15,969 nt of DNA from Tsukamurella soli (GCF_039541155.1 NZ_BAABFR010000108.1:1-15969); one strand, 5' to 3'. Counted from the first letter of the stretch, positions 1 through 14,796 are shown. Made by a program: numbers and translations. The notes: generated by a model from the sequence alone, not told the origin.

Positions 1-95
1 CGGGCTGGGTAGCGCAACGTCTGGGCCTCGTTGCGGGTGCCTGGTATGCCGCTGGGCGGGGTGCCGTGACGTGGGATGACAGCGTTGCCTCTTGG

Positions 96-120
96 CGGTG
101 CGGTGCGGTGCGGTGCGGTG
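96..120. repeat. Pentanucleotide microsatellite (CGGTG)x5
   Basis: Five perfect head-to-tail CGGTG units read directly at 96-120, in apparently non-coding high-GC DNA. Confidence 0.9.
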
Positions 121-507
121 GGACGGTCGCGGTGATACCGGTGGACTTGCCGGCGTGTGGATAAAGTAGTGCCCGTTTGGGGCCCTGATGGCGTGCTGGG
201 GCGACGAGGGGCGTTATGGGTAGCTTCGACGGGGGCGTGCCTCGGCGGCGGCGAGGGACTTGTGGTGTTCGATCGCCGGCTCATGGGTCGTGAATCCGCA
301 TCAATTAGACGAACCGTCTCGGCGATCGGTTCCGACCATCTGTTCCCACAGGTAGGAGGGCCAGACGAACGCTCGCCAGGCAAAGGTCTCAACGACGACA
401 CCGCGTGAGCTGCCACTGACAAACCTGTCCTCTCGAGACGGTCCACGCTCGAGTGGGCAACAACAGTAGAGTCACATACGTAGCGAGTGACAGCCGGAGG
501 GGCGAGG

Positions 508-1635
508 ATGGACCTGCAGGAACAAATCGAGAGTGCCCGACAATCGATCAAGACCGACGCATATTCGATGTCAATCGGCGAACTTGTGAACCTTTACCGA
601 TCTGAAGAGCTCATAATACGCCCCGAGTTTCAACGACTCTTCCGGTGGTCAATCCTTCAGAAGTCCCGCCTAGTCGAGAGTATCCTTCTTGGCATACCAG
701 TGCCATCAATATTTGTCCTCCAGCGAGAAGATGGCGTCTGGGAACTCATCGACGGACTACAGAGAATCAGCACGATACTTGAATTCATGGGTGAACTGCG
801 CAACGAAGACCCCGACTCCGAAGAAGACCTCATTGCGCCCAAATTACTCGTCAGCACGGACTACCTTCCTGGTCTTGACGGAGTGACTTTCAGCGACGAC
901 TGGGAGAACGCAGCGGACAGTCTCACACCCGGACAGCGCATAGCATTCAAAAGGTCGAAGATCGACATCAAACTACTCCTTCCAGAGAGTGACAATCGAT
1001 CCAAATACGAACTATTCGACCGTTTGAACGCTGGTGGCGCTCCAGCGACAAGCCAGGAGGTCCGCGCAGCGCAGATCCTAATGCGCGATCCTGCGATGTT
1101 CAAATGGATCGAGGACTTGCGCACAAGCCCATCATTCTCGGATACCTTAAGTATTACGGATCGCTTGATCGCGGAAGCATACGACGCAGAGCTCGTTTGC
1201 CGCTTTCTTTCGCTTCTCCACTCCGGTACTGACGACCTGAAGTCAATCGATAGTTTCGACGAGCACATCACGTCAACGATATTCTCGCTAATCGAGTCAG
1301 ATGCCTTTGACCCTGAGACAGACAAACAGATCTTCGGTTCGGTCTTTTCACTAATAGATAATGCACTAAGCGACGACGCATTTCGGAAGTACGACGAGAG
1401 GAAGGGTCGCTTCGTTGGGGGATTTTCGGTTTCGGCATTCGAATCAATTACGATCGGAATCGCCCGTAATATCGAAGTGTGGCAGGAGGCCACCGAGGTA
1501 GAGCTAAGGAAGCGAGTCGAAGACCTTTGGTCACTTGAGGACTTCCGAAAGGGATCAGGCGGCGGCATTCGTGGTTCGTCACGCGTTTCCAAGACAATCC
1601 CTGCAGCAGTTTCCTACTTCTCCAAAACGGCATGA
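508..1635 (+). CDS. DUF262 (ParB-like, GmrSD N-terminal type) domain protein
   Basis: The N-terminus has the DUF262 signature 'IRPEFQRLFRWSILQKSRLVESILLGIPVPSIFV...WELIDGLQRIST' (DGLQRIST at 751-774). The ORF track starts at GTG 487, but ATG 508 has a GGAGG (496-500) 7 nt upstream, so 508 is preferred. I could see no DUF1524/His-Me nuclease motif in the C-terminal 250 aa. The block is low-GC. The stop overlaps the next start (ATGA at 1632-1635). Confidence 0.85.
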   Translation: MDLQEQIESARQSIKTDAYSMSIGELVNLYRSEELIIRPEFQRLFRWSILQKSRLVESILLGIPVPSIFVLQREDGVWELIDGLQRISTILEFMGELRNEDPDSEEDLIAPKLLVSTDYLPGLDGVTFSDDWENAADSLTPGQRIAFKRSKIDIKLLLPESDNRSKYELFDRLNAGGAPATSQEVRAAQILMRDPAMFKWIEDLRTSPSFSDTLSITDRLIAEAYDAELVCRFLSLLHSGTDDLKSIDSFDEHITSTIFSLIESDAFDPETDKQIFGSVFSLIDNALSDDAFRKYDERKGRFVGGFSVSAFESITIGIARNIEVWQEATEVELRKRVEDLWSLEDFRKGSGGGIRGSSRVSKTIPAAVSYFSKTA

Positions 1636-2297
1636 AAGTACGAACGTTAGAGAAGTTAGAGCAGCTCATCTCCGATGATGTATCCTGGAGGAAGAAAGAG
1701 CTTTCCGTACTCGACGGACTTATCGGGAACGGTCGCACGCCAGCAAGCCGTGCTGCACTACGCGCCAGCATCCCCCTACTTTACGCGCATTGGGAGGGTG
1801 CTATCAAAAACATCTGCCACTGGTATCTTTGCTATCTTGCGGCACAAGCCTTGCCTCTGGATGAATTTAAGGCCGAAATCGTCGGATACACTCTAAAAGG
1901 GAAGTTCGCTGCACTTAGCAATTCCCGCCGGCCCATAGTCTTCTCAGAGGCCGTGAGGATGATCAGAGAAGAGGCTGATAAGCGAGCAAGAATCCCTACC
2001 GAACGAGATGCAATTATCACTGAGTCGAACTTGAGTTATGCTGTATTATGCGACCTGCTTATGTCGATCGGGTGCGACACTTCCGGGTTCGATCGATACC
2101 AAGACCTGATCGATTCCCAACTCCTCAACATTCGGAATCGGATCGCACATGGAGAGGACGAATATCCCAGGCTACCAGAGTGGTCTGACCTGAAGGAAGT
2201 GATAGTGTCGTTGATCGATCAGGTTGCTACGCAGGTGTTAAACGCGTCCGTCACAGGACAATTCCGGCGTGTCGCCCCCAGTCCCGCAGCGGGGTGA
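1632..2297 (+). CDS. HEPN-domain protein (MAE_28990/MAE_18760-like family), predicted RNase effector
   Basis: R-x4-H HEPN motif 'RNRIAHGE' (RNRIAH at 2133-2150). The N-terminal 'WRKKELSVL...LLYAHWEGAIKN' is typical of this HEPN family as I recall it. It has a 4-nt ATGA overlap with the DUF262 gene. The last ~15 codons run into high-GC DNA antisense to the integrase remnant, so the native C-terminus is uncertain. Confidence 0.75.
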   Translation: MKVRTLEKLEQLISDDVSWRKKELSVLDGLIGNGRTPASRAALRASIPLLYAHWEGAIKNICHWYLCYLAAQALPLDEFKAEIVGYTLKGKFAALSNSRRPIVFSEAVRMIREEADKRARIPTERDAIITESNLSYAVLCDLLMSIGCDTSGFDRYQDLIDSQLLNIRNRIAHGEDEYPRLPEWSDLKEVIVSLIDQVATQVLNASVTGQFRRVAPSPAAG

Positions 2298-2770
2298 CGT
2301 TCCTTCGGCGCGGGGTCGACACCGACCCGAGCGCAGCCATAGTGTCTGCGTGGTCGTCATCGAATAGGTGGGCATAGACCTCCGTTGTCACCACGGTGGA
2401 GCTGTGGCCCATGTAGTCGGCGATTTGCTTCGGGTGCAGGCCCGCGCTCACACAGAAGCTCGCATAGGTGTGACGAAGCGTATGGGCCGTGGTGAGCGCT
2501 GGGATCGGTCGCAGACCGTCCGCATCGAGCGCCAGGCTCCCCCTCAACAGCGCGGGGCGGTAGATGTTCTTGTAGTACATTGTGGTGGATCAGCTCTGCC
2601 CAGTCCAGGCTTAGCCGCTCCCCTGCTTCCTGGACCGTCACGTCCGCAGAACTTGGCACAGCCCAGAGAGGCGAGACGGTTTGGGCGCGATCGCCCCTGT
2701 ATCGCGAAAGCAGTCGCCACCACGCGCGCTCCCGTGCCATGTGATCCTCGACCCGATCGGCGGGGCTGAA
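2251..2770 (-). pseudogene. Tyrosine recombinase (phage-type integrase) remnant, truncated and frameshifted
   Basis: The frame at 2251-2580 encodes only the C-terminal catalytic part: 'AHTLRHTYASF' (HxxR box), 'MGHSS', 'EVYAHLF' (catalytic Tyr). Upstream (2581-2770), a different frame gives a weak 'AGERLSLDWAELI' integrase-like stretch. The segment normally found between these boxes is missing, and there is no N-terminal core-binding domain. Confidence 0.7.
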
Positions 2771-2901
2771 CCATCGAGGTCCTCTGCAAACTCGTCCATA
2801 CCCATTAGGTGCACCAGCTCCCCATCCGGTGCCCAGTTCGTCCGTGCGTGCTCGAATGTGCGCGACTGACCAAACTACGCATCGACGGGCTCGCAGTCCC
2901 C

Positions 2902-3876
2902 TCACGGGTGCGATGGGGCTTCTTCTTCGGGGCCATGCACGAGGTACTGCGCGTACGCAAGGACCTGCGGGTTCATCTCCGAGTACGGGGCTGGTCCTCG
3001 TTCAGAGAACGGTCCAGTTCTGAAGCAGTACGCGCCGCGTTTGCCCTCAAACCGCTCGACCAACTCGCACACGATTTCGCCATACGGGCGCATGACCTCA
3101 TCGGGGTACAGGGCATTGAGAACCTTCTCATTGAACTTAGGCATCTCATCTTTGATGCTGTCCAAGAGCTTGAACACAGAGAGGTCTTGGGGCATCCCTT
3201 TGAGCTGTTCGAGGTACCCGGCAATCTTCTCGTTGGGTTTCTTCGGGTTGAGGTTGCGAACCTGCGAGACGACCTCGTTATCGAGGTCGAGCACAATCAC
3301 GGGCTCTCGGCCCACTGCGAGACTCACCGACATCTTGATAGCCATCAAGTCGATGTGCACCAAGGCATTTCGCGCCTCGATCATCCAACGGTACGCCTCG
3401 CATTGGTCGTAGAATTCGTTCAGTAGATTCTTTACCGTCTGCTCAGTAGCCTTGTCGTCGCTGCGTGCTTCGGATATCCGCTCGGCCTGAGCTATCCTCT
3501 GGTCGCGATACACGAAGCACGAGTTAGCCGCATTCATGGTCTTCGTGGCCGCCGCAATCCGAATCGACGTGCCCCGCTCTGTCGTGCGAGGGATATGCTT
3601 CTTCTTCATCCCGTATTGGGCGATGCCGATTATGAAGTCGAGTAGGTCGAGGCACTCGTCGTTCACGAACAGCCACATGGGGTCCTCGGCAAAGCGGGTC
3701 AGCTCTATGTACGCGCCCATGTAGCGCTCGTATTCTGCATCCGAGAAGTCGGCGATGTGACGCATGATGGGTGGCACTCCTGCCTCGAAGTCTTGAAGCA
3801 GGATCCCGTGGTTTCCGTGATCCTTCATCGCAAGAGCGTATCGCCCGCCTCGTCCGAATGGCGACCCATTTACCAT
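2902..3876 (-). CDS. Hypothetical protein (324 aa) with a HEPN-like RNxxxH motif
   Basis: Long ORF with realistic amino-acid composition in a GC-depressed block. AGGA lies 8 nt upstream of ATG 3876. The central motif 'EARNALVH' (R169..H174, nt 3355-3372) matches R-x4-H. I recognise no other family. Confidence 0.6.
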   Translation of the reverse strand: MVNGSPFGRGGRYALAMKDHGNHGILLQDFEAGVPPIMRHIADFSDAEYERYMGAYIELTRFAEDPMWLFVNDECLDLLDFIIGIAQYGMKKKHIPRTTERGTSIRIAAATKTMNAANSCFVYRDQRIAQAERISEARSDDKATEQTVKNLLNEFYDQCEAYRWMIEARNALVHIDLMAIKMSVSLAVGREPVIVLDLDNEVVSQVRNLNPKKPNEKIAGYLEQLKGMPQDLSVFKLLDSIKDEMPKFNEKVLNALYPDEVMRPYGEIVCELVERFEGKRGAYCFRTGPFSERGPAPYSEMNPQVLAYAQYLVHGPEEEAPSHP

Positions 3877-4348
3877 CTGAGATGTCCTGTGGCGCAGTGT
3901 ATCGCTGCGTATGCGTACGACCTCCGGTGAGCGGTCGTTGGGCGCGGAGCACTACGCCTCGACCCCGGACGCCGGGGCAGGCACCTCGTCGTCAACCTGA
4001 CGTTCGAAGCTCACGATCCTCGTCTCCCGCATTACGATGCCGAGGTGGAGTTGGGAGTCTGTGACTGGACGATGGGTGGTGCACCTGCCTCGAGCCGCGT
4101 TCCGCGACGGCATCCAAGAGCCCGGGCACCGTCCCGACGACGGCGGGACCTTGGCATCATCCCCGGGCTATCGAATGGCACCACTACAACCCACGCGGAT
4201 GTCGGGGTACGACGGGCGTTCCGCCCCAGGACGGCAGGACGAAACTACGAGTTGCGATGCGCCGCGGCCCTGGCGACGATGCCCGCTCCCTCGACGGCTC
4301 AGCGTGCCGGCGTAGTCGAGTGACATGTCGTAGGGTCTCGCTAGTCTC

Positions 4349-5338
4349 ATGTGTATGGGATTGGGAGAGCTGACCGCGGAGTCCGTAAACGCAGCGATCG
4401 CCGAATATGACGAGCTGGGCGCGGACGCTTTCCTGTCCAAGTATGGGTATGGACCCGCGCCCGGGTACCTCATCCACTACGACGGCAAGCTCTACGATTC
4501 GAAGGCTATCGCGGGGGTGGCATACGGCTACATCCCCGGGCTCAACCCGCTCGGTTCCGCAGAGTTCAGCGGTGGCGAAGCGAGCGTCGCTCGTAAGCTG
4601 CGCCAGCTCGGATTCCGGGTGCCACCAACTCGGTCACCGGACTGGGTTCGAGATGAGGTCATTCTCGCCTGCGATCTGGTCGCTCAGAACGGCTGGAACT
4701 ACATGAGCGCCGACGATCCTCGTGTCGTCAAACTGTCCGGACTCTTGCAGCGGCTCCCGTTCCATCCCGTCGAGGTCCGCGGAGACAAGTTCCGCAACAC
4801 CAATGGTGTAGCTCGTAAGACGGTTGACATTGCCATGCATCACCCCGACTACCCCGGGAAGACTACGAAGAGTGGCGGGATCGACGAGGTCGTGCTGCAC
4901 GAGTTCCTTGACGATCCGACGGGTATGCACGCGATCGCCGAGGCTATGCGCCGGTCGATCGCAGACGACACCGTGATCGAGCAGTCGGCGGTACCTAGCG
5001 AGGACGAGGATGACGGTGCCCGGGAGGGCCGTCTCCTTCAACGTCGGCACTTTGTCCGCGAACGGGACAAGAAGCTGCGTCGCCGCAAGATCGCGGAGTT
5101 TCTTAAGGTCCACGACCGCGTCCATTGCCAAGCGTGCGGATTCGACTTCGAGGCGGTCTACGGCGGCCGCGGCCAGGGGTACATCGAGGTCCATCACACG
5201 TTGCCGCTACACGCTGCCGACGAGCGGCAGACCGAGCTGACTGACCTCGTGCTGCTGTGTGCCAACTGTCACCGGATCGTCCACAACAAATCGCCATGGC
5301 TGACGTTTGACGAGCTGCGTGCGCTCGCCGCACCATAG
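4349..5338 (+). CDS. HNH endonuclease, type IV (modification-dependent) restriction-like, ScoMcrA/COG3183-type
   Basis: The N-terminal 'AIAEYDELGADAFLSKYGYGPAPGYLIHYDGKLYDSKAIAGVAYGY' resembles the ScoMcrA-type head domain. The middle 'WVRDEVILACDLV...DKFRNTNGVARKTVDIAMHHPDYPGK' is the COG3183-type region. The C-terminal HNH is 'CQACGFDF...YIEVHHTLPL...LLCANCHRIVH'. Confidence 0.85.
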   Translation: MCMGLGELTAESVNAAIAEYDELGADAFLSKYGYGPAPGYLIHYDGKLYDSKAIAGVAYGYIPGLNPLGSAEFSGGEASVARKLRQLGFRVPPTRSPDWVRDEVILACDLVAQNGWNYMSADDPRVVKLSGLLQRLPFHPVEVRGDKFRNTNGVARKTVDIAMHHPDYPGKTTKSGGIDEVVLHEFLDDPTGMHAIAEAMRRSIADDTVIEQSAVPSEDEDDGAREGRLLQRRHFVRERDKKLRRRKIAEFLKVHDRVHCQACGFDFEAVYGGRGQGYIEVHHTLPLHAADERQTELTDLVLLCANCHRIVHNKSPWLTFDELRALAAP

Positions 5339-5397
5339 TGGATCTTTCTAAGGTCGCTCAGCTGTACGTGCGTTACTTCGGCGCTCTTACCGATGCT

Positions 5398-5415
5398 CGC
5401 ACCGGATAACCGCGC
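5398..5415. repeat. Left copy of flanking direct repeat CGCACCG(GAT)AACCGCGC
   Basis: Read directly. It matches 12547-12561 (CGCACCGAACCGCGC) except for a 3-nt GAT insertion. It lies 6 nt from the Cas1 stop codon. Confidence 0.45.
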
Positions 5416-5421
5416 GTCCCG

Positions 5422-6858
5422 TCAGTCACCGTCGTGGTCGAGTGCCCCATTCAGTTGGTTCCAGGTTCCGTCAGCGGTCCAGCGGTCGAGTCGTGCTTTG
5501 CAGGTCCAGCGGGAGACGCCGAGGGTTTTGGGGATCTGCGCCCAGGCGGTGCCGTGGTGTGTGACGCAGAGGATTCCGGCGAGGACGGTTCGGTCGTCGG
5601 CCCATGCGCGTCCTCCGCTGCCGCTTTTGGGGTTCGGTGGGATGAGAGGGCGAAGGCGCTGCCACATCTCATCGGTAACGATGTCGGCGACGGTGACCAG
5701 TCCATCGAGTCTTAGTCGGGCCTGCTGGATCGGCGTCGTCGTGGCGGGGTGCATGATCGTCTTGTTCCGTACCAGCCGTGGTGTCGTCCGGGTTTCGGCC
5801 CGTGCGGTGTTGGCGATCGCGTTGGCGATGTACTGGGTGTGCGGCGTGATCTGCTTCGCGTAGTGCGGCAGGTGTTCGGCGAGTTCGTGTGTCAGTGGCG
5901 GAACCAGCCGGCACTGGCCGTCTCGGCTCTCGTGCAGCAGTGAGGGCCAGCGTCGCTTGTTGCACGGTGTGTTGATCATTGTCAGGACGTGCCGGTCGAC
6001 GTGGGGACGGAGGATTTCGAGGAGGTCGACGGCGAGGGAGTCCCGGGCGGGTTCGTCGAAGTGGAGGAATCCAAGCGCCGGATCCAGCCCGATGGTGTGG
6101 CAGGCGAGCCGGCACTCGACTTCGGCGAGCCGGTACGAGTAGTTGAGCATCGCGTTGATCGGGTCGCTGGCGAAACGGGCCCGGCCGGACTTGCCGACTT
6201 TCGAGCTGCGGCCGTTGAAGCGCTGCCAGTGGTCGGGGATGCGTGGTAGGTCCGCGCGGAGGTACGGGAGCGCGACGGTACCGGTCCAGGCGTTCCAGTA
6301 GATTCTGCCGGCGTTCCCTTCGTAGCCGCGGGCCTCGGCGATCGTGTCGGCTGCGTCGACGGCCTCGATGAGGGCGCGGATCTGCTGCGCTGCTTGCGGG
6401 TCGGCGAGTTCGTGGTCGGCGATCTGGGCTTGTCCGTCGAGTTTGAGACCGAGGATGTGTTTGACGAGCGCGAGCCCGACGTGTTCGTTGGGTCCGCCGA
6501 TCCCGGCGAAGGCCTGCGCGCGGCGGAGGCGCGCGTTGTGGTCGGCGGGCGGGGACGAGGAGGTGATGAGGTCACCGTTGCGGTCGAGGTGCAGCAGGGT
6601 GATGCCGACGTCGGCGCACCAGGCGAACGCGTCCAGGGTGATGTAGCCCGAGCCGGAGAGGACGACGATCCGTTGCAGTGTCCGTTCGATGCGGGGGATG
6701 CGGCGTTCCCGGCGGTGGGAGCCGATGCCGTCGCTGATGGTGAGATGCCCGCGGTGGACGCTGATTCGGATGCCGTAGCCGTCGACGACGAGCACCCGCG
6801 GGTCGGTCGGGGTGCGGGTGTAGATGTCGCCGACGGGGGTGTCGAGGGTCGCGGTCAT
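5422..6858 (-). CDS. cas1: Cas1-family integrase (solo, casposase-like) with C-terminal DUF4096/IS5-type HTH
   Basis: 478 aa from ATG 6858. N-terminal beta domain: 'VLVVDGYGIRISVHRGHLTISDG' and 'RIVVLSGSGYITLDAFAWCADVGITLLHLDRNGDL'. Catalytic residues: E180 ('ARGYEGNAGRIYW'), H266 ('DPALGFLHFD'), D278/E281 ('DSLAVDLLEILRP'), plus 'DPINAMLNYSYRL'. C-terminal ~90 aa: 'VTDEMWQRLRPLIPP...GGRAWADDRTVLAGILCVTHHGTAWAQIPKTLGVSRWTCKARLDRWTADGTW', an IS5-transposase N-terminal HTH pattern. The ATG overlaps the upstream stop (ATGA at 6855-6858). The track's 800-aa ORF is an upstream out-of-frame extension. Confidence 0.85.
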   Translation of the reverse strand: MTATLDTPVGDIYTRTPTDPRVLVVDGYGIRISVHRGHLTISDGIGSHRRERRIPRIERTLQRIVVLSGSGYITLDAFAWCADVGITLLHLDRNGDLITSSSPPADHNARLRRAQAFAGIGGPNEHVGLALVKHILGLKLDGQAQIADHELADPQAAQQIRALIEAVDAADTIAEARGYEGNAGRIYWNAWTGTVALPYLRADLPRIPDHWQRFNGRSSKVGKSGRARFASDPINAMLNYSYRLAEVECRLACHTIGLDPALGFLHFDEPARDSLAVDLLEILRPHVDRHVLTMINTPCNKRRWPSLLHESRDGQCRLVPPLTHELAEHLPHYAKQITPHTQYIANAIANTARAETRTTPRLVRNKTIMHPATTTPIQQARLRLDGLVTVADIVTDEMWQRLRPLIPPNPKSGSGGRAWADDRTVLAGILCVTHHGTAWAQIPKTLGVSRWTCKARLDRWTADGTWNQLNGALDHDGD

Positions 6859-7730
6859 CGATGTGTCTCTTCTGGTCGCTGGTCGAGGTGGAGCCCGAGG
6901 ATGGTGAGGACGTCGGTGCAGCAACGGTCGACCATCAGTTGGGTATTCGGTTGGAGGTACATCCCGTCGCTCGACGGTGTCGCCGTGCGGGCGAATTCGG
7001 GTTGCAGTGCAATGTATTCGGCGAAGCTCAGCAGATGTTGTTGCCGCGCATCGATGAAGCGTTGGTCGTGATGGCCGGCGAGGATGTCGTCCCTGTTGTC
7101 GATCAGCCAGTCGACGGCGACGGAACGTGCGGTGATCAGCCTCAGTACCGACTCGACGGTCAGCGGCGCTCCGGGCGCGCCGAGGTACCGCGGCGCGTGG
7201 TCGGGTTCGAAGACGGCGCGGATCGCCTCCTCCACACGGTGAGGGTCGAAGCGACCCGTGTAGCTGGTCTCGGCCAGCAGGTCGAGGAGGTGTGCGCGGG
7301 CCGCCTTGCCCGCGCCGGGGTGGTCGAGCTGGCCGAGCACTGCGCGGGCGCAGTCGCGTGCGTACTTCTTGTTGACGCGCGGTCCGCGGTCGCCGGGGTC
7401 GCCGAGCCAGGTGAGGAACGCTTTGCGGGCTTGCCGGGTCGGGACGTAGTCGTCGCCCCAATACAGCCAGATGCAGACGACGACACGCGCGAGCGCGGGG
7501 ATGCGCGTGGTCTGGGTGCGTTTGTCGAGGAGTGTCACGAACAGCAGGCGTTGATTGGCGGTGTAGAGCGCGGGGCGGGAGCCGTGGCCCTTGCCGGCGG
7601 GTTGCAGGGTGGGTGAGTCGAGCAGTCCCCGTTCGGTCCAGTCCCGGACCAGCCGCGCGGTGGGGTGATGGCCTGCGGTGCGCCCGTCGGTGAGCAGGTC
7701 GTCGATGGTGCCGGGCCGGTCGAAGGTCAC
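6855..7730 (-). CDS. Hypothetical protein with N-terminal MerR-like HTH, translationally coupled to cas1
   Basis: 291 aa from GTG 7730. 'TARLVRDWTERGLLDSP...GKGHGSRPALYTANQRLLF' resembles a MerR-type HTH. The remainder is unrecognised. The stop overlaps the Cas1 start. Confidence 0.6.
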   Translation of the reverse strand: MTFDRPGTIDDLLTDGRTAGHHPTARLVRDWTERGLLDSPTLQPAGKGHGSRPALYTANQRLLFVTLLDKRTQTTRIPALARVVVCIWLYWGDDYVPTRQARKAFLTWLGDPGDRGPRVNKKYARDCARAVLGQLDHPGAGKAARAHLLDLLAETSYTGRFDPHRVEEAIRAVFEPDHAPRYLGAPGAPLTVESVLRLITARSVAVDWLIDNRDDILAGHHDQRFIDARQQHLLSFAEYIALQPEFARTATPSSDGMYLQPNTQLMVDRCCTDVLTILGLHLDQRPEETHR

Positions 7731-7801: not shown

Positions 7802-8044
7802 ATGGACATCACACTATTGACCAAAGGTCAGGTCGCACGCCGGCTCGGGCTCTCCCCGGAACGGGTGCGGCAACTCTCCGAATCCGGGGCGCTCGCATGC
7901 CAGCACACACCGCTCGGCAGACTCTACGATCCCGACGAGGTCGACCGCTACGCGGCGACTCGCGCGGCTGACACCCGGCGCTCACACCGCTCGGTCGAGC
8001 GTCGGGATTCGTCCTCGCGCGACGGCGGTGCTGACGGTGAGTGA
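7802..8044 (+). CDS. Excisionase-family/MerR-like HTH DNA-binding protein
   Basis: 'LLTKGQVARRLGLSPERVRQLSESGALACQHTPLGRLYDPDEVDRY' matches the Xis-type HTH pattern. It is the first gene of the plus-strand operon. Confidence 0.7.
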   Translation: MDITLLTKGQVARRLGLSPERVRQLSESGALACQHTPLGRLYDPDEVDRYAATRAADTRRSHRSVERRDSSSRDGGADGE

Positions 8045-8303
8045 CGAGATGATCCGTGCCGTGACGACGCGGTCGGTCGAGTCCATTCCCGTGAGGGAGC
8101 TGACCGAGGCCGAGTTGTCGCTTGTCGGGAGTCATTGGAACGCCGTCGGGCGGTATCTGCGGACCGGTGACACGACACGGCTGAACCGGTTCGTCGGCGT
8201 CCGGGTCGGTGGTCGTGAGTTGGAGACACGGACCGTCGCACTGGACTATTACGGCAACATCGGGGAGCTCGAGTTCGAGTCGATCTATGACGACATCCGG
8301 TGA
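8028..8303 (+). CDS. Small hypothetical protein (84-91 aa)
   Basis: The ORF bridges the Xis-like and HNH genes, and its stop overlaps the next start (GTGA at 8300-8303). The start is either GTG 8028 or ATG 8049. No domain recognised. Confidence 0.5.
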   Translation: MLTVSDEMIRAVTTRSVESIPVRELTEAELSLVGSHWNAVGRYLRTGDTTRLNRFVGVRVGGRELETRTVALDYYGNIGELEFESIYDDIR

Positions 8304-9085
8304 GCCGGGGAGTGTGCGCCGCGTGCGGGCGGATCGGTCGTATCGAGGCCCATCACCTCGCGGGACGCGTCAATGATCCGACGCTCACGGTTCCTGTCTG
8401 CCGGGACTGCCATCGCGGTTACCTGACACCGTGGCAGTACGCCGACGGCGTCGGACTCCGCCACGATGGAGTCGACAACGAGGTCGATACGCTGCGTGCC
8501 CTCGTGCATGGGATGTTCCGCTTCCTCGCGCTGATGTGCCAGCGCACCGGAGGCGACCCGGCGCAGCTCGCTGACGACTGCATCCTGACGGCGCGGGGGT
8601 TCTCGTCCCTGCTGGATGCGGTGGGGCCACCCGACCGGCAAGGTCGGTGGTCGCCGGACCCACGCAACGCCGATCCTGTTGCGGGACCGGTGATCCCCGC
8701 CGGCGGATCAGCCGCCGAGCGCCTGCACGACCTGGCGACCAGCTTCCTCACGGCGACCGAGCCGGTCGCCGGCGTCGACCCGCTCCGCGTGGTGCTCGTC
8801 GACATCGTCGCCGACCCCGAGCGGTACCTGGACGCCTGGGAGGAGTTCGTCGCCGACCCCGATCGATACACGCAGATGTGCGCCACCGTCGGCGAGATAG
8901 CCGAGTGGAGTCACAACGCCACGCTCGGTCTCCTCGACCTCGCCGACCCCCACAGGCGGCCGGCGACCGGCGCCGGGTCCAGAACCGAACTCGGGCAGGG
9001 ACTCGCGGATGCGGGCTCCAAATTGCTAGACCTGCACCACGCCGTGATAGCCCATCATGCGGAAGAACCGAGGGCAGTGCGATGA
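8300..9085 (+). CDS. HNH-finger protein with an unrecognised C-terminal domain
   Basis: The N-terminal 40 aa 'CAACGRIGRIEAHHLAGRVNDPTLTVPVCRDCH' has CxxC...HH...N...CxxCH, an HNH/His-Me zinc finger. It is overlap-coupled to both neighbours (GTGA 8300-8303, ATGA 9082-9085). Confidence 0.7.
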   Translation: MSRGVCAACGRIGRIEAHHLAGRVNDPTLTVPVCRDCHRGYLTPWQYADGVGLRHDGVDNEVDTLRALVHGMFRFLALMCQRTGGDPAQLADDCILTARGFSSLLDAVGPPDRQGRWSPDPRNADPVAGPVIPAGGSAAERLHDLATSFLTATEPVAGVDPLRVVLVDIVADPERYLDAWEEFVADPDRYTQMCATVGEIAEWSHNATLGLLDLADPHRRPATGAGSRTELGQGLADAGSKLLDLHHAVIAHHAEEPRAVR

Positions 9086-11274
9086 ACGATGGCGACCGCG
9101 ACCTCCTGCCTGTCGCGGTGCGGGCCTGGACCGACGCACCCCGCGCCACCCGCAGGGCGCAGCGCAGCGAACCGATTCAACACGTCCTCGTGATCGACAC
9201 CGAGACCACCACCGACGAAGCGCAAGCCCTCAACTTCGGATGCTTCCGCTACTGCCACATCGACGGCGACGGGCGCGTGGTCACCGTCGCCGAGGGCCTG
9301 TTCTACGCCGACGACCTGCCCGAACGGCACCCCGACGGACACGCCGTCCTGCGCTCCTACGCCGCGCAGCAGTCCGCCGACGTCGACATGAAATACACTG
9401 GCGGATCGGTTGATTGGCGACTGAACTTGATGCCGCTGTCGGTGTTCGTCCGCGACTGGCTGCGGCTGGCGTACGAGCCGCGGCGCGGACGGGCGTGGGG
9501 ACCTGCCACGGTGGTGATGTTCAACGCACCGTTCGACCTCTCCCGCCTCGCCGGCAACGTCAGCGACGCCCGCGGCACCGGGAAGGCGCACGTGTTCGCC
9601 GGCGGATTCTCCCTCGCGCCGTGGGTCGACGCCGATGGACACCCCGCTGGCTGGTTCCCGAGACTGCGGGTCAAGTCGATCGACTCGAAACGCGCCCTCA
9701 TCGGCTTCTCCCAAATCGATCCCGAAAAGAAGATCAGTACAGGCGATTTCGTCGACCTCCGGACCGTGGCTTTCGCGTTGACCGGAAACAGTCACAGCCT
9801 GGCCACCGCATGCGAGACCTTCCGTGTCGAGCACGGCAAGACCGCGACCTCCGAGCACGGCCTCATCACACCCGAGTACATCCGATACTGCCGCGACGAC
9901 GTACGTGCCACCACAGAGTTGTTCGAGAATACCAGCGCGGAGTACGCACGGCACCCGATCGCTTTGCCGGTCAGCAAAGCGTTCTCGCCGGCCTCCATCG
10001 CCAAGGCCTACCTACGGGCGATGGGCATCACCCCGATCCTCGAACGCCACCCAAACGTCACCAATCAGGCTCTCGGGTACGCGATGTCGGCGTACTACGG
10101 CGGGCGGGCCGAAGCCCACATCCGCAACACCCCGGTACCGGTGGTCGTCTGCGACTTCACCAGCATGTACCCCACCGTCGACGTCCTGATGAACCTGTGG
10201 GGGCTGCTCACCCACGAGGACACCGTCACCGAGGACGCCACCGACGACTTTCGAGCGCTGCTGGATTCGGTGACGCTGGACGGCTGCTTCCGCCCCGACC
10301 TGTGGCCTCAGCTCGTCGGTATCGCGCAGATCGTCCCCGACGGTGACGTGCTTCCCGTCCGCGCCGCCTACGGTGACACCCCAGGATGGAACATCGGTGT
10401 CAACCACCTGACCAGCGACCATCCACTCTGGTATACGCTGCCTGATATCCTCGCCTCGACATTGCTCACCGGCAAGCCACCGCGCGTCCTGCGAGCGGTG
10501 CGGTTCACCTCCTCCCGCAACCTCTTGCACGGCCTCACCGAGGTGCGGCTGCGTGGCGAGGTCCCTGTCGATCCCGCGACGGATGACTTCTTCCGCACCG
10601 TCGTCGAGGAACGCCAACGCGTCAAGACCGCTGGCCAAGGCCACCCGGACAACTGTCCGTGCCAGGAGTGCTCGCTCGCCCCGTTCCTCAAGGTCCTCGC
10701 GAACGCCGGAAGTTACGGAATCTTCGGGGAGATGAACCGCCACGAACAGTCGAAGCCGATGACCGTGACCGTGTACGGGGCCTTCGAGTCACCGTGGGAG
10801 ACGACGACATCTGCCCCCGAGCTGCCGGGTGAGTACTGCTTTCCACCGATCGCTGCCTGCATCACCGGGGCTGCCCGGCTGATGCTCGCCTTGCTCGAAC
10901 GATGCGTCACCGACCTCGGCGGAACCTGGGCGTTCTGCGACACCGACAGCATGGCGATCGTCGCCGACGAGACCGGTTCACTGGTCCCGTGTGCCGGCGG
11001 ACCGCACCTTACCGACGACGGCCGCCCCGCGGTCCGCGCCCTCACCCCGCATCAGGTCGAAGCCATCCGTCGTCGATTCGACACCCTCAACCCCTACGAC
11101 CCTGTGGCGGTTCGCGACATCCTCAAACGCGAATACGACGGATACTGCGTCGCGATCTCCGCCAAGCGGTACGCCCTCTACCACCTCGACGATTCCGGAC
11201 ACGCGGTGCCGGATCGGGTCATCGATCTGATCGGCGAGGACGTCGACGCCGACACGTGGCCCGGCACGGCATGA
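9082..11274 (+). CDS. polB: Family B DNA polymerase with 3'-5' exonuclease domain (730 aa)
   Basis: ExoI 'VIDTET' (DTE 9196-9204). ExoII 'MFNAPFDL' (9523-9537). ExoIII 'YCRDD' (9886-9900). Motif A 'DFTSMYPT' (10153-10176). Motif B 'KVLANAGSYG' (10690-10719). Motif C 'CDTDS' (10936-10950). KxY 'AKRYALY' (KRY 11164-11172). The start at ATG 9082 is chosen for its ATGA overlap with the HNH gene. The track's 8647 start adds an Arg/Pro-rich stretch out of frame with the HNH gene. Confidence 0.9.
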   Translation: MNDGDRDLLPVAVRAWTDAPRATRRAQRSEPIQHVLVIDTETTTDEAQALNFGCFRYCHIDGDGRVVTVAEGLFYADDLPERHPDGHAVLRSYAAQQSADVDMKYTGGSVDWRLNLMPLSVFVRDWLRLAYEPRRGRAWGPATVVMFNAPFDLSRLAGNVSDARGTGKAHVFAGGFSLAPWVDADGHPAGWFPRLRVKSIDSKRALIGFSQIDPEKKISTGDFVDLRTVAFALTGNSHSLATACETFRVEHGKTATSEHGLITPEYIRYCRDDVRATTELFENTSAEYARHPIALPVSKAFSPASIAKAYLRAMGITPILERHPNVTNQALGYAMSAYYGGRAEAHIRNTPVPVVVCDFTSMYPTVDVLMNLWGLLTHEDTVTEDATDDFRALLDSVTLDGCFRPDLWPQLVGIAQIVPDGDVLPVRAAYGDTPGWNIGVNHLTSDHPLWYTLPDILASTLLTGKPPRVLRAVRFTSSRNLLHGLTEVRLRGEVPVDPATDDFFRTVVEERQRVKTAGQGHPDNCPCQECSLAPFLKVLANAGSYGIFGEMNRHEQSKPMTVTVYGAFESPWETTTSAPELPGEYCFPPIAACITGAARLMLALLERCVTDLGGTWAFCDTDSMAIVADETGSLVPCAGGPHLTDDGRPAVRALTPHQVEAIRRRFDTLNPYDPVAVRDILKREYDGYCVAISAKRYALYHLDDSGHAVPDRVIDLIGEDVDADTWPGTA

Positions 11275-11277
11275 CCC

Positions 11278-12522
11278 GTGATCGACAAGAACTCCGAGCA
11301 CGGGCTCGGGCACCTGCTCAACCCCACCGACCCCGAATCCGACGACCGAGACTGGATACGCCACCTGTGGACCTTCATCGTCGCGACCGTGATCGGCGCC
11401 GACCGGGTCGAGCCGGACTGGCTCGACCGACCAGCGCTCGGACGGATCACCATCTCCTCACCGACCATGCTGCAGCCGCTCGCAACGTGGAACGAGACAC
11501 GGCCATACGCTCAGCAGATCAAGCCGTACAACTTCCTGCTCGTCGCGCACGCCGCACCGCTCGGACACCCACCCGGTGCCGACCCCGAGAAGTTCACCCT
11601 CATCGCCCCGTACAGCGCCGACGCCACGCTGTGGGCCGGGTTGATGTGGCGCAACCTCCACGACCCCCACGGCCCGACCTACAGAATCACCACCGAGGAC
11701 TGGGATCACACCCTCGGCGGCCAACCGGCAGACCTCGTCGTCGTCACCTCCTACCGCGACGTCCTGCACCGATACATGCGCCACCCTGAAGCGAAATCCG
11801 CAGGCCCAGAGGGAAACCCATGCAGACACGACACCACCGGGCTCCTCGGACGACGGCAAGTCCACCTCACGAGCGGCAACCTGCACCACATCGGGAAAGA
11901 AGCCAACAAGATCGACGACGTCCAGGCCGGAACCGTCACCGCGCTCGACGACGTCGTCAACGACTACGGAACCCCGCTCGACATCCTGGCGGCTCTGGTG
12001 TGGCCGTGCATCGCCACGCTATCGAACGTCGACATCGCTGCACGATTCGACGTCGCGGAACGGACCGTCGCGCGCTGGCGCCGGAAGGATGCGACTCCCC
12101 GCGACCGACACGTGCAAGCGCTGATCATGCTCGCCGTCGACGTGGCACTCGACCACCTGAACCGGGCCGCGATCGACCACCCATGGTGCGACCTGCCGCT
12201 CGCAGCGGCGCGCCGCGACTGGCGAACGGTACTCGCGTTCCACCTCGACCGCCACGAACCAGAACAACCACGATGCCCCTGCGGCTGCGGAGCCCCGCTC
12301 CGCCCACGCCAGAACTACGCGACAGACGCCTGCCGGAAACGCATCGTACGCCGATCCGCCCCGCCGACACCCGGCGCGACGGCGGCACCCCGACCACAGA
12401 CCCAACTGACACCGGCGAGTCGTCCCCACGGGGCACAAGTAGGGACAGCGGCACCGATAGACAGTTTGGACATGTCACGTACTCGCGCAGCGGACCCGTC
12501 CCGATGTTTGGTGGGGTGGTAG
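11278..12522 (+). CDS. Hypothetical protein in the same frame as PolB (possible polymerase C-terminal continuation) with an HTH-like segment and C-terminal Cys cluster
   Basis: It begins 3 nt after the PolB TGA, in the identical frame. The N-terminus is 'IDKNSEHGLGHLLNPTDPESDDRDWIRHLW'. There is an HTH-like 'LSNVDIAARFDVAERTVARWRRK' and a 'CPCGCGAPLRPRQNYATDACRKR' zinc-ribbon-like tail. Confidence 0.55.
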   Translation: MIDKNSEHGLGHLLNPTDPESDDRDWIRHLWTFIVATVIGADRVEPDWLDRPALGRITISSPTMLQPLATWNETRPYAQQIKPYNFLLVAHAAPLGHPPGADPEKFTLIAPYSADATLWAGLMWRNLHDPHGPTYRITTEDWDHTLGGQPADLVVVTSYRDVLHRYMRHPEAKSAGPEGNPCRHDTTGLLGRRQVHLTSGNLHHIGKEANKIDDVQAGTVTALDDVVNDYGTPLDILAALVWPCIATLSNVDIAARFDVAERTVARWRRKDATPRDRHVQALIMLAVDVALDHLNRAAIDHPWCDLPLAAARRDWRTVLAFHLDRHEPEQPRCPCGCGAPLRPRQNYATDACRKRIVRRSAPPTPGATAAPRPQTQLTPASRPHGAQVGTAAPIDSLDMSRTRAADPSRCLVGW

Positions 12523-12546
12523 TGGTATCGGTGGTTTCGGCCGACG

Positions 12547-12561
12547 CGCACCGAACCGCGC
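12547..12561. repeat. Right copy of flanking direct repeat CGCACCGAACCGCGC
   Basis: Read directly. This is the partner of 5398-5415. It lies 24 nt after the stop at 12522. Confidence 0.45.
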
Positions 12562-12585
12562 CCGCACCACGTATCATGATCCAGC

Positions 12586-12990
12586 GTGAAGAAGTGGATC
12601 ACTGCGGTCGCCGCAAGTGGAATCTGTGTATCGCTCACTCCCTCTGTGGCACAGGCGGATCCGCCGCCCATGACGCCTGCGTATGCGTACGACTGCGGGC
12701 ACAAGTCGATCCGACCGGCTGAGATCGTCATCACCTGCGCGGACGCAAACAATGAGGTGGTTGACATCGATTGGTCGGTGTGGAGCACGGAAACGGCGCT
12801 AGGCCGTGGCGTGTGGACGATCAACCCATGTATTCCCTACTGCGCCGTGGTTCCCTCGTCGAAATGGAAACGCACGCCGGTCTCTGTGGTACTCACAGAA
12901 CGGCAGGACGACGGGTTTATGCTGATGGTGCTCACCGACGGGTCAGGCAGGAACACGGTAGTGAACCTTCGCGATATCGCGCAGGCGTGA
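12586..12990 (+). CDS. Small secreted protein (Sec signal peptide, four Cys)
   Basis: 'MKKWITAVAASGICVSLTPSVAQA|DPPP' has n/h/c regions with an AQA cleavage motif. The mature part contains four cysteines. Start is GTG. No domain recognised. Confidence 0.7.
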   Translation: MKKWITAVAASGICVSLTPSVAQADPPPMTPAYAYDCGHKSIRPAEIVITCADANNEVVDIDWSVWSTETALGRGVWTINPCIPYCAVVPSSKWKRTPVSVVLTERQDDGFMLMVLTDGSGRNTVVNLRDIAQA

Positions 12991-13262
12991 AATACGCCGG
13001 CGACGACAGCGACCACAAGTGCTCCGGGGGGCACCGACGCGGATCGGCTCGCCAAGGTGGCCGCTGACAAACTTGGCCGGCGGCAAGAGGCGCCTGGGAT
13101 CTGTCTCCACTGAGCCTGCGTTTCCGGGCACAGGCCCGGAGAGTCGCGTGGGCCGCCGTAGTGGGCCTTCAAGGGCAACGTTATGGTGTCGTCGGCAGGT
13201 TCGACCGGGCAGGTGGGCGCCCGCTGAGCCGTTTGAGATGCTTGGGTATTCTGCCTCTGAAG

Positions 13263-13284
13263 ATGGGCAGAGCATGGGCAGAGC
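13263..13284. repeat. Perfect 11-bp tandem duplication ATGGGCAGAGC x2
   Basis: Read directly, in the apparently non-coding 12991-13549 region. Confidence 0.9.
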
Positions 13285-13549
13285 TGTCAGGGCTGATATC
13301 ACCGCATCACGTGGGGGGCGCGGATGTGTGAGTGCGGCGCCTCGCGACGAGTACATGGATCCCGCAATCCCTGCAAGTCCAGCTGTGCTTCCGACTGCTG
13401 TTCACGTGGCCCCGGTTTCCGGTCGGCGCCGCATCGACCGGATGCCACGGCGGACGACACTCACGGCAATGGTGGCCACTGAAACACCGGAGAGCTCTTT
13501 CATGTAACCTTCCGCGGGTAAGCGGTGCGAGGCATGCCTACAAGGACCG

Positions 13550-14584: not shown

Positions 14585-14710
14585 ATGGACATCGTCTCAT
14601 CTCTATCACGGTTCGGGACGCGTTCGGACTTCGTTTGAGGTGCTGGTCCCTCACTTGTGGCCCGATACCGCGAGGTCGGCGCAGCGCTGGACGTTCGGGC
14701 GGCTCCGGCG

Positions 14711-14759
14711 GTCACCCGGCTCACACAAACGCGGTCTTGAGGGCGCCGCGTGGGGTGAC
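14711..14759 (-). terminator. Compound GC-rich stem-loop between the kinase and nuclease genes (possible terminator or attenuator)
   Basis: The outer stem GTCACCC (14711-14717) pairs with GGGTGAC (14753-14759). The inner stem ACGCGG (14729-14734) pairs with CCGCGT (14746-14751). There is no U-tract. It lies 38 nt downstream of the kinase stop on the minus strand. Confidence 0.2.
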
Positions 14760-14796
14760 GCACGCATCCTCGAGGCGATCGCCAACTTGCAGACAG

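What the first reader, a model, noticed from the sequence alone, without database searches (positions are those of the whole stretch)
5422..6858. Cas1 fused to an IS5/DUF4096-type transposase HTH
Seen: a continuous 478-aa ORF. Residues 1-~330 form a Cas1 core with E180, H266 and D278/E281 at typical spacing. After a Thr/Arg-rich linker, residues ~392-470 read 'VTDEMWQRLRPLIPP...GGRAWADDRTVLAGILCVTHHGTAWAQIPKTLGVSRWTCKARLDRWTADGTW'. That is the pattern of the N-terminal DNA-binding domain of IS5/IS1182-type transposases. Established: casposases differ from CRISPR Cas1 by having a C-terminal HTH. Inference: the end- or target-recognition domain here seems to have been recruited from, or shared with, an IS transposase family, linking two unrelated integrase systems.
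Basis: partly seen in the sequence, partly recalled or inferred. Interest (0 to 1): 0.6.

Follow-up and report, generated by a model that had tools for sequence, protein, structure and literature searches.

The report
Casposon integrase with borrowed IS5 DNA-binding domain
A Cas1-type transposon integrase (casposase) in an actinomycete carries, in place of its lineage's usual zinc-ribbon/HTH tail, a DNA-binding domain taken from IS5-family insertion-sequence transposases. This natural domain swap recurs in about 30 related protein clusters and could help show what the casposase tail does.

Summary
A 478-aa ORF lies on the minus strand (6858 to 5422). It has a Cas1 core (Pfam E 6e-44; E180, H266, D278 and E281 invariant), a disordered linker of about 35 residues, and a full-length DUF4096 domain (Pfam E 1e-20; NCBIfam IS5-transposase model, positions 5-81, E 1e-17).

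It is a casposase. A family B polymerase, an HNH-like gene and small HTH genes sit beside it, and the window has no CRISPR array. The best structural match is the M. mazei casposase 6OPM.

The fusion is not an artefact. 29 of the 120 best homologue clusters carry it (Pseudonocardia, Amycolatopsis, Saccharopolyspora, Streptomyces), and one pair gives dN/dS of about 0.13 on the domain.

The other 91 clusters carry a C-terminal zinc ribbon plus an unrelated HTH, the family-3 AceAut-C1 architecture. Trees of the Cas1 core (support 99) and of the domain (support 96) each make the fusions one clade, nested among zinc-ribbon forms. That fits a single capture from an IS5-type element.

DNA-end or target recognition by the domain is inferred, not shown. 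I found no inverted terminal repeats in this copy, only a marginal 15-nt direct repeat. The papers I searched do not describe this architecture. I class it as a new variant of a known kind, of moderate interest. Other notes from this scan had already flagged the casposon module on this same window.

The parts
5422..6858 (-). Casposase gene, 478 aa: Cas1 core fused to a DUF4096 domain (stop codon 5422-5424)
   Evidence: ORF and translation. Pfam PF01867 plus PF13340. Exact protein is listed with both domains (P0002).
5803..6858 (-). Cas1 core, residues 1-352: N-terminal beta domain (about 1-100) and catalytic helical domain (109-352). Catalytic codons: E180 (6319-6321), H266 (6061-6063), D278 (6025-6027), E281 (6016-6018).
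   Evidence: AF2 model, mean pLDDT 81.6. Foldseek best hit 6opm casposase at E 2e-18, then 4n06. phmmer against PDB: 4n06 at 1.6e-23 and 6opm at 2.8e-22. Invariant residues.
5692..5802 (-). Flexible Thr/Arg/Pro-rich linker, residues about 353-389
   Evidence: pLDDT 31-53 and no secondary structure at 358-383. Length and sequence vary among the fusion proteins.
5452..5679 (-). DUF4096 (IS5-transposase N-terminal HTH-type) domain, residues 394-469
   Evidence: Pfam E 1e-20. Genome scan with PF13340 places it at C108:5452-5679, 74 bits. NF033580 positions 5-81. Stand-alone AF2 model is a helical bundle, pLDDT 86.6. Alignment with IS-type DUF4096 proteins.
6855..7730 (-). 291-aa gene of unknown function, translationally coupled to cas1 (ATGA overlap)
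   Evidence: ORF list. No Pfam or NCBIfam hit. Homologues lie directly upstream of cas1 in 5 related loci. A 278-aa gene holds the same position in the Pseudonocardia locus L092.
7802..8044 (+). Small HTH_17/MerR-type (excisionase-like) gene heading the divergent polymerase operon
   Evidence: Pfam HTH_17 at 1.6e-5 and MerR_1 at 2.9e-5. A 70-aa HTH_17/MerR gene holds the same position in L092.
8300..9085 (+). HNH-like gene (CxxC...HH...CxxC at the N-terminus), 261 aa
   Evidence: Translation. No Pfam hit. Homologues upstream of polB in L007, L008, L018 and L027.
9082..11274 (+). Family B DNA polymerase, N-terminal part (ATG 9082 overlaps the HNH-like stop)
   Evidence: Pfam DNA_pol_B_2 at E 4.6e-7. 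tblastn finds it in 49 of 80 related loci at 40-50% identity, aligned from about residue 135 of the long ORF. Frame is open from 9082.
11278..12522 (+). 414-aa ORF directly after the polymerase stop. Conserved partner, or the C-terminal part of the polymerase.
Evidence: Found in 38 of 80 loci, always next to polB.
5390..5415 (.). Left copy of a candidate imperfect direct repeat (possible target-site duplication), in the 83-nt gap after the cas1 stop
   Evidence: Local alignment with 12541-12561 has 15 matching nt around a 3-nt indel. Score 26 against 17.0 +/- 2.8 for shuffles; 9 of 1000 shuffles and 3 of 80 other window segments reach it. Marginal.
12541..12561 (.). Right copy of the candidate direct repeat, in the gap after the last module gene
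   Evidence: No inverted repeat lies just inside either copy.

Best explanation
The gene encodes the integrase (casposase) of a compact, roughly 7-kb bacterial casposon of the family-3 kind. The element runs from about 5.4 to 12.6 kb in the window. It holds two divergent operons: 291-aa gene then casposase, and small HTH, HNH-like gene, then a family B polymerase in two ORFs. In this lineage the ancestral C-terminal DNA-binding tail of the casposase (zinc ribbon, basic helix and an HTH) was replaced once by a DUF4096 domain. DUF4096 is the N-terminal helical, HTH-type module of IS5-family DDE transposases. The new domain hangs on a disordered linker of about 35 residues. Shown here: the domain identities, the recurrence and single origin of the fusion, purifying selection on the domain in one pair, the casposon gene context, and long inverted terminal repeats in Streptomyces relatives. 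Inferred: the tethered domain binds specific DNA, either sites in the casposon ends or next to the target. It would thereby position the Cas1 core for end processing and integration, the role the zinc-ribbon/HTH tail, or the family-2 HTH, is presumed to play.
For: Domains. Fold: the whole-protein AF2 model's best PDB match is the M. mazei casposase 6opm (E 2e-18), and the linker is disordered. The tail alone folds as a confident helical bundle, and its only, non-significant, PDB neighbours are HTH DNA-binding domains: sigma region 4, SorC/DeoR, KorA. Context: polB, HNH-like gene, the 414-aa partner and the 291-aa partner are conserved in related loci. The window has no CRISPR array. Recurrence: 29 of the 120 best homologue clusters have PF01867 plus PF13340 at 33-52% identity. 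Replacement: the other 91 carry CxxC...CxxC plus a different HTH, and hhalign between the two tails gives probability 0.8%. Single origin: the Cas1-core tree puts all 29 fusions in one clade (SH-aLRT 99) inside the zinc-ribbon forms. The domain tree puts all 38 Cas1-linked domains, plus 6 short fragments, in one clade (SH-aLRT 96) among IS-type domains. IS affinity: 3378 library proteins match the 97-aa tail at E<=1e-3, and the best non-Cas1 hits are N-terminal DUF4096 proteins of 100-200 aa at 36-42% identity. Selection: L007 against L008 gives dN/dS 0.13 on the tail and 0.20 on the core. Mobility of the kind: L007 and L008 carry inverted terminal repeats of about 90-110 nt, with a clustered 9-mer (GGCCGTCYR). 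The element was not found in 20 same-genus genomes. Literature: deleting the family-2 HTH abolishes integration (PMC6977970).
Against: No DNA binding has been measured for this domain or for any casposase tail. Hickman et al. could not show DNA binding by the isolated family-2 HTH (PMC6977970). This copy shows no terminal inverted repeats and only a marginal direct repeat. Its closest full relative, the Pseudonocardia locus L092, shows none either. So this copy may be immobile. The polymerase is in two ORFs (note e1-2488179). Rooting of the Cas1 tree rests on one very long outgroup branch, so the direction of replacement (zinc-ribbon form to DUF4096) is likely rather than proven. Assignment to family 3 rests on architecture and on the Saccharopolyspora spinosa protein appearing next to StrAlb-C1 in the 2014 alignment. 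It does not rest on a tree with the named reference casposases.
Confidence: 0.75

Rival explanations
1. The fusion protein is real, but this copy is a decaying or domesticated remnant lodged in a defence island. It no longer transposes, and the protein may be idle or reused for another DNA transaction.
For: No TIRs were found. The polymerase is interrupted by a stop (note e1-2488179). The genome has a single copy. The flanks carry GmrSD-, HNH- and Mrr-type nuclease genes and a kinase. The S. spinosa homologue L006 has no polB within 10 kb.
Against: All catalytic residues and the whole domain are intact. The element was not found in 20 same-genus genomes, so it arrived recently. Operon structure is preserved, with ATGA overlaps at 6855-6858 and 9082-9085. 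Casposon TIRs can be short and imperfect (PMC4046053).
Confidence: 0.2
2. The DUF4096 tail does not recognise ends or targets. It serves another role, for example as an autoregulator binding the divergent promoter region, or as an oligomerisation or partner-binding module for the 291-aa protein.
For: Family-1 casposases integrate site-specifically with no tail at all (PMC6614799, PMC8464041). The isolated family-2 HTH showed no DNA binding (PMC6977970). A conserved, translationally coupled partner gene exists.
Against: From my own knowledge of IS5-family biology, not tested here, this N-terminal region is taken to be the end-binding part of the transposase. The domain replaced another zinc-ribbon/HTH DNA-binding module at the same position. 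Deleting the family-2 HTH kills integration on all substrates (PMC6977970).
Confidence: 0.15
3. The ORF is an accidental chimera: an IS5 element inserted at the 3' end of cas1, or an assembly or frameshift error.
For: IS5-type elements are active in this genome; one sits inside a CRISPR array on contig C12.
Against: The same architecture occurs in 29 homologue clusters from several genera, with an alignable linker and invariant W399, A427, P443 and W460. No DDE part or IS inverted repeat follows; only 83 nt separate the stop from the next gene. There is purifying selection on the tail in one pair. The resident IS domain is only 32% identical.
Confidence: 0.02

Closest known systems
Family 3 casposons (AceAut-C1, NitAL212-C1, StrAlb-C1, HenMar-C1; Krupovic et al. 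2014, PMC4046053)
   Same: Bacterial host and intergenic location. Cas1-solo integrase next to a family B polymerase and an HNH-type gene, plus small HTH proteins. The sister lineages here have the Cas1-zinc-ribbon-HTH layout described for AceAut-C1. Streptomyces relatives have TIRs of about 110 nt, like the 116-nt TIR listed for StrAlb-C1. The S. spinosa member of the fusion clade sits next to StrAlb-C1 in the 2014 alignment.
   Different: The C-terminal module is DUF4096 rather than zinc ribbon plus HTH, or nothing. The 2014 paper states that the StrAlb-C1 and HenMar-C1 Cas1 proteins have no extra domains. This copy is small (about 7 kb) and has no detectable TIRs.
Family 2 casposases (A. 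boonei; M. mazei, PDB 6OPM)
   Same: Cas1 core followed by a C-terminal helical DNA-binding-type domain of 60-90 residues on a flexible tether. 6OPM is the best structural match to the core. The tail is essential for integration in M. mazei (PMC6977970).
   Different: Archaeal, and mostly inserted in tRNA genes. A DUF4096 profile does not detect the 6OPM chain even at E<=10, so by sequence the tails are different domains. The family-2 polymerase carries the same HTH as its Cas1, whereas here no other gene of the element has DUF4096.
IS5-family transposases (NCBIfam NF033580; Pfam DUF4096 plus a DDE domain)
   Same: Residues 394-473 match the first 80 or so positions of the IS5 transposase model. 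The conserved W...PLLP...GGRP..DDR..L.GI......G..W..LP...G....TC.RR...W...G.W pattern is shared at 36-42% identity.
   Different: There is no DDE catalytic domain. The domain is C-terminal rather than N-terminal, and the catalytic partner is a Cas1 integrase. The resident IS's inverted-repeat sequence is not found at the casposon's borders.

Membership tests
Casposon / casposase | Cas1-family integrase with intact catalytic residues | tested here: met
   PF01867 at E 6e-44. E180, H266, D278 and E281 invariant. Best fold match is casposase 6opm.
Casposon / casposase | Not part of a CRISPR-Cas locus (no array, no cas2 or effector genes nearby) | tested here: met
   No CRISPR-like tandem repeats in the window. 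None of the window ORFs I scanned hits another Cas family. The genome's CRISPR-type Cas1 and its array are on another contig.
Casposon / casposase | Family B DNA polymerase gene in the same element | tested here: met
   9082-11274, PF03175 at E 4.6e-7. 40-50% identical to polymerases next to cas1 in 49 of 80 related loci.
Casposon / casposase | Terminal inverted repeats flanked by a target-site duplication | tested here: inconclusive
   Window: no TIR, and a marginal gapped 15-nt direct repeat at 5390-5415 / 12541-12561. Relatives L007 and L008: TIRs of 90-110 nt. L092: none found.
Casposon / casposase | Demonstrated mobility or integration activity | not testable with these tools
   Indirect only: not found in 20 same-genus genomes and rare in the class (3 of 400 sampled genomes, none with the DUF4096 part).
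Family 3 casposons | Casposase groups with the family-3 reference proteins in a Cas1 tree | tested here: inconclusive
   No reference sequences were available as tool objects. Indirect support: the clade is nested among Cas1-zinc-ribbon-HTH proteins of AceAut-C1 architecture, and S. spinosa Cas1 (P0010) lies beside StrAlb-C1 in the 2014 alignment file.
Family 3 casposons | Bacterial host, intergenic insertion, HNH gene present | tested here: met
   Actinomycete genome. The module lies between intergenic gaps 5339-5421 and 12523-12585. The HNH-like ORF 8300-9085 is recognised by motif and synteny only.
DUF4096 (PF13340) domain | Score above Pfam's gathering threshold over the full profile | tested here: met
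   70.3-74.2 bits against 34.3, profile positions 1-75 of 76; 74 bits in the genome scan.
IS5-family transposase | DDE catalytic domain after the N-terminal domain; IS-type short inverted repeats | tested here: not met
   NF033580 matches only positions 5-81 of 258 (64 bits against a cut-off of 110). The protein ends 9 residues after the domain. The resident IS's IR motif is absent at the borders. It shares a domain with IS5 transposases but is not one.

The most novel reading that the evidence does not exclude
The captured IS5-type domain keeps, or has evolved, an IS-like mode of end recognition. In that case DUF4096-casposons would use subterminal repeated sites, such as the GGCCGTCYR clusters in the Streptomyces TIR copies, in the way an IS transposase uses its inverted repeats. 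They might then cross-talk with IS5 elements by targeting or mobilising them. Relatedly, the 12-15-kb Streptomyces contigs that begin and end in the TIRs might be free linear or excised copies of an actively replicating casposon.
Probability: 0.08. Interest if true: 0.8.

Novelty: new variant of a known kind. Interest (0 to 1): 0.5.

Why it matters
What the casposase C-terminal domain does is an open question. It is essential in family 2, absent in family 1, was invisible in the crystal structure, and its isolated form bound no DNA (PMC6977970, PMC6614799). Here nature has done the swap experiment. Within one casposase lineage, a zinc-ribbon/HTH tail was exchanged for the N-terminal module of an unrelated (DDE, IS5-family) transposase, and the result has been kept under selection in several actinomycete genera. 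Comparing sister enzymes that differ mainly in this tail could show whether the tail sets end specificity or target specificity, using their own end sequences. The case also shows DNA-binding modules moving between two mechanistically unrelated transposase superfamilies, which bears on how Cas1 integrases gain and lose specificity on the way to CRISPR adaptation. Bacterial family-3 casposons have not been studied biochemically as far as the papers I read show, and these proteins come from culturable hosts.

Tried and rejected
- TIR/TSD search in the window. I used seeded repeat finding, gapped local alignment of the two borders, and exhaustive ungapped TIR+TSD scans over 5200-5422 x 12500-13560 and over 25-5422 x 12500-15944, i.e. 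both whole flanks. Nothing exceeded chance. The one lead, from note e1-2488180, is marginal.
- TIRs in the closest full relatives L092 and L006: none found.
- Empty-site search in 40 relatives: the whole contig is almost unique to this genome, so no empty site could be recovered.
- Word-based homologue search with the 97-aa tail: no candidates. I replaced it with the exhaustive HMMER search.
- Fold search with the tail alone against PDB: no significant hit. A profile search of PDB sequences found none either, so no DUF4096 structure is available and 6opm's tail is not detected.
- Homology between the zinc-ribbon/HTH tail and DUF4096: rejected (hhalign probability 0.8%).
- The Streptomyces TIR 9-mer and the resident IS5 inverted repeat are not enriched at the window's borders.
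- tRNA and Rfam scans of the window were empty.
- The AU test of the domain clade did not finish in the time allowed.
- Literature: no paper holds 'casposon' together with 'DUF4096', or Cas1 together with PF13340/DUF4096. The casposon papers and review I read do not mention this architecture.

Full report
**Observation**

Translating 5422-6858 on the + strand gives many stops. The gene is on the minus strand, with ATG at 6858 and stop at 5422-5424, and encodes 478 aa. The longer open frame reaching 7824 is out-of-frame read-through of the upstream 291-aa gene (7730-6855). That gene's TGA overlaps the cas1 ATG.

- Pfam finds Cas_Cas1 at residues 23-297 (E 6.2e-44).
- Pfam finds DUF4096 at residues 394-469 over the whole profile. 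E is 1.6e-19 in the full protein and 1e-20 for the last 97 aa alone.
- NCBIfam's IS5-family transposase model NF033580 matches its positions 5-81 at residues 394-473 (E 1.1e-17).
- E180, H266, D278 and E281 are invariant among 23 fusion proteins.

**Structure**

An AlphaFold2 model built on the 23-sequence alignment has mean pLDDT 81.6. It shows:

- a Cas1 beta domain and a helical catalytic domain up to residue 352;
- a disordered stretch at 358-383 (pLDDT about 31);
- a confident helical bundle at 390-474.

The best PDB match of the whole model is the M. mazei casposase 6opm (E 2e-18), followed by A. fulgidus Cas1 4n06. Sequence search ranks the same two first, in the reverse order.

Modelled alone, the tail has pLDDT 86.6 and no significant PDB neighbour. 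The weak ones are all HTH DNA-binding domains. A profile of DUF4096 sequences finds no PDB chain, not even the 6opm chain with its C-terminal HTH, at E<=10.

**What the element is**

The casposase is the distal gene of a two-gene operon, after the 291-aa gene. A second operon runs divergently from it:

- a small HTH_17/MerR gene (7802-8044);
- an HNH-like gene (8300-9085);
- a family B polymerase (9082-11274, PF03175 at E 4.6e-7);
- a 414-aa ORF (11278-12522).

tblastn of these proteins against 80 related loci finds the polymerase in 49, the 414-aa ORF in 38, the 291-aa gene in 5 and the HNH-like gene in 3-4. All lie next to the cas1 homologue. The closest full relative, Pseudonocardia locus L092 at 52% identity, has the same plan plus an SSB gene.

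The window has no CRISPR array. The flanking genes (GmrSD, HNH, Mrr-like, kinase) are not conserved in the related loci. G+C rises from about 0.52-0.63 in the flanks to 0.65-0.69 in the module. This is a casposon module of about 7 kb, roughly 5.4-12.6 kb in the window.

**Ends**

Streptomyces relatives have clear imperfect inverted terminal repeats:

- L007: 75-164 against 13270-13359.
- L008: 7-116 against 11344-11454.

These carry an internal palindrome and clustered GGCCGTCYR 9-mers. StrAlb-C1 is listed with a 116-nt TIR.

In the window I found no inverted repeats by four methods. 9 of 1000 shuffles reach its score, as do 3 of 80 other window segments. The Pseudonocardia locus shows no TIR either.

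Whether this copy is still mobile is therefore open. It was not found in 20 same-genus genomes. Relatives of the casposase occur in only 3 of 400 sampled genomes of the class, none of them with the DUF4096 part. That pattern points to recent horizontal arrival.

**Recurrence and origin of the fusion**

Of the 120 best homologue clusters (543 hits in all), 29 carry Cas1 plus DUF4096 at 33-52% identity. Named sources are Pseudonocardia, Amycolatopsis, Saccharopolyspora and Streptomyces. Four of the 80 genome loci kept cover the whole fusion, one of them a gammaproteobacterial MAG.

The other 91 clusters are 500-530 aa long. After the Cas1 core they carry a CxxC...CxxC zinc ribbon, a basic helical stretch and an HTH ending in PHxRHW. 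This is the layout reported for the family-3 casposon AceAut-C1. hhalign between the two kinds of tail gives probability 0.8%, so they are different domains.

- A maximum-likelihood tree of the Cas1 core was rooted with the genome's own CRISPR Cas1, which is a long branch. It places all 29 fusions in one clade (SH-aLRT 99), nested among the zinc-ribbon forms.
- An exhaustive HMMER search with the 97-aa tail finds 3378 proteins at E<=1e-3. After Cas1 fusions and their fragments, the best hits are 100-200-aa proteins with an N-terminal DUF4096 at 36-42% identity. Some continue into the start of a transposase body.
- In a tree of the domain alone, all 38 Cas1-linked domains plus six short fragments (91-162 aa; two include the Cas1-type linker) form one clade (SH-aLRT 96).
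- Between two Streptomyces elements, dN/dS is 0.13 for the tail and 0.20 for the core (one pair only).

Together these results indicate one capture of an IS5-type N-terminal domain by a family-3-type casposase. The captured domain replaced the older tail and has since been maintained.

**Mechanism**

Shown: a Cas1 integrase core with intact active-site residues, tethered by a flexible linker to a folded helical domain whose homologues form the N-terminus of IS5-family transposases.

Inferred: the tail binds specific DNA at the element's ends or beside the target and so positions the core. Three points support the inference:

- the tail occupies the position of another DNA-binding module;
- the family-2 tail is essential for integration (PMC6977970);
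- the N-terminal region of IS transposases generally binds the IS ends (general knowledge, not tested here).

Against it, no casposase tail has yet been shown to bind DNA, and family-1 enzymes manage without one (PMC6614799, PMC8464041).

**Comparison with what is known, and novelty**

The element works like, and most probably is, a family-3 casposon. A direct tree with the named references was not possible. The S. spinosa member of the fusion clade is present next to StrAlb-C1 in the 2014 alignment file.

The 2014 paper describes family-3 Cas1 proteins either with zinc ribbon plus HTH or with no extra domain. Later papers state that only family 2 has a C-terminal HTH. No paper in the library holds 'casposon' together with 'DUF4096', or Cas1 together with PF13340.

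The protein is not an IS5 transposase, because the DDE part is absent. I therefore class it as a new variant of a known kind: a casposase sublineage with a DNA-binding module borrowed from a DDE transposase family. Interest is moderate. Domain shuffling of HTH modules is common, but this case offers a natural tail swap for an unresolved question in casposase and Cas1 biology.

**Limits**

- The AU test did not finish.

Noticed in passing
L004 (own genome G000:C12:9714-12932), about 833-1785: The genome's only other DUF4096 gene belongs to an IS5/IS427-like insertion sequence of about 950 bp (inverted repeats TAGGGCGTGTCTC...). It sits inside a CRISPR array: palindromic repeat core CGCCTCGGCTCCGGCCGAGGCG, period about 74-75 nt, at least 11 units on each side. 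A CRISPR-type Cas1 lies on the same contig (C12:539-1084).
   Followed up: partly
L007:1-13371 and L008:1-13977 (Streptomyces contigs): Both contigs start and end within a few bases of TIR-like sequence and carry a third TIR-like copy 100-300 nt downstream of the cas1 stop. Several other Cas1-DUF4096 clusters also have longest contigs of 12-15 kb. This could reflect free linear or excised copies, or assembly breaks at the repeats.
   Followed up: partly
L007 36-55, 10691-10926, 13341-13349; L008 107-115, 11233-11467, 13932-13940: The 9-mer GGCCGTCYR is concentrated in the TIR copies of the Streptomyces elements (7 of 8 and 7 of 9 occurrences). It is a candidate protein-binding site. It is not enriched in the window.
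   Followed up: partly
window 295-358: A sequence of about 60 nt recurs at 84-90% identity in most same-genus genomes and elsewhere in this genome. It is not a tRNA or a known Rfam family. It may be a dispersed repeat or an attachment-site remnant.
   Followed up: no
window 2275-2638: This stretch is conserved at 73-85% in several same-genus genomes and on own contig C89. The adjacent 2684-3945 is 88% identical to one congener (G016). These are mobile or island-associated sequences flanking the casposon.
   Followed up: no
proteins P0122, P0123, P0128, P0131, P0132: Some proteins are made of 3-5 tandem DUF4096 domains (P0122 has five, P0123 four). P0131 (1052 aa) has three DUF4096 stretches near its C-terminal end and a weak Replic_Relax match near its N-terminus. 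So the domain is reused outside IS transposases in other contexts too.
   Followed up: partly
L006 (Saccharopolyspora spinosa chromosome), 9920-11437: This Cas1-DUF4096 gene has no polymerase, HNH-like or partner genes within 10 kb on either side. It is a solo casposase, possibly a remnant or a domesticated copy.
   Followed up: no
window 487-2297, 4349-5338, 13550-14584, 14797-15969: The casposon is flanked by a GmrSD-N/DUF262 gene with a coupled downstream gene, an HNH endonuclease, an Mrr-like nuclease and a protein kinase. All sit in lower-GC blocks, giving a defence-island-like setting.
   Followed up: no
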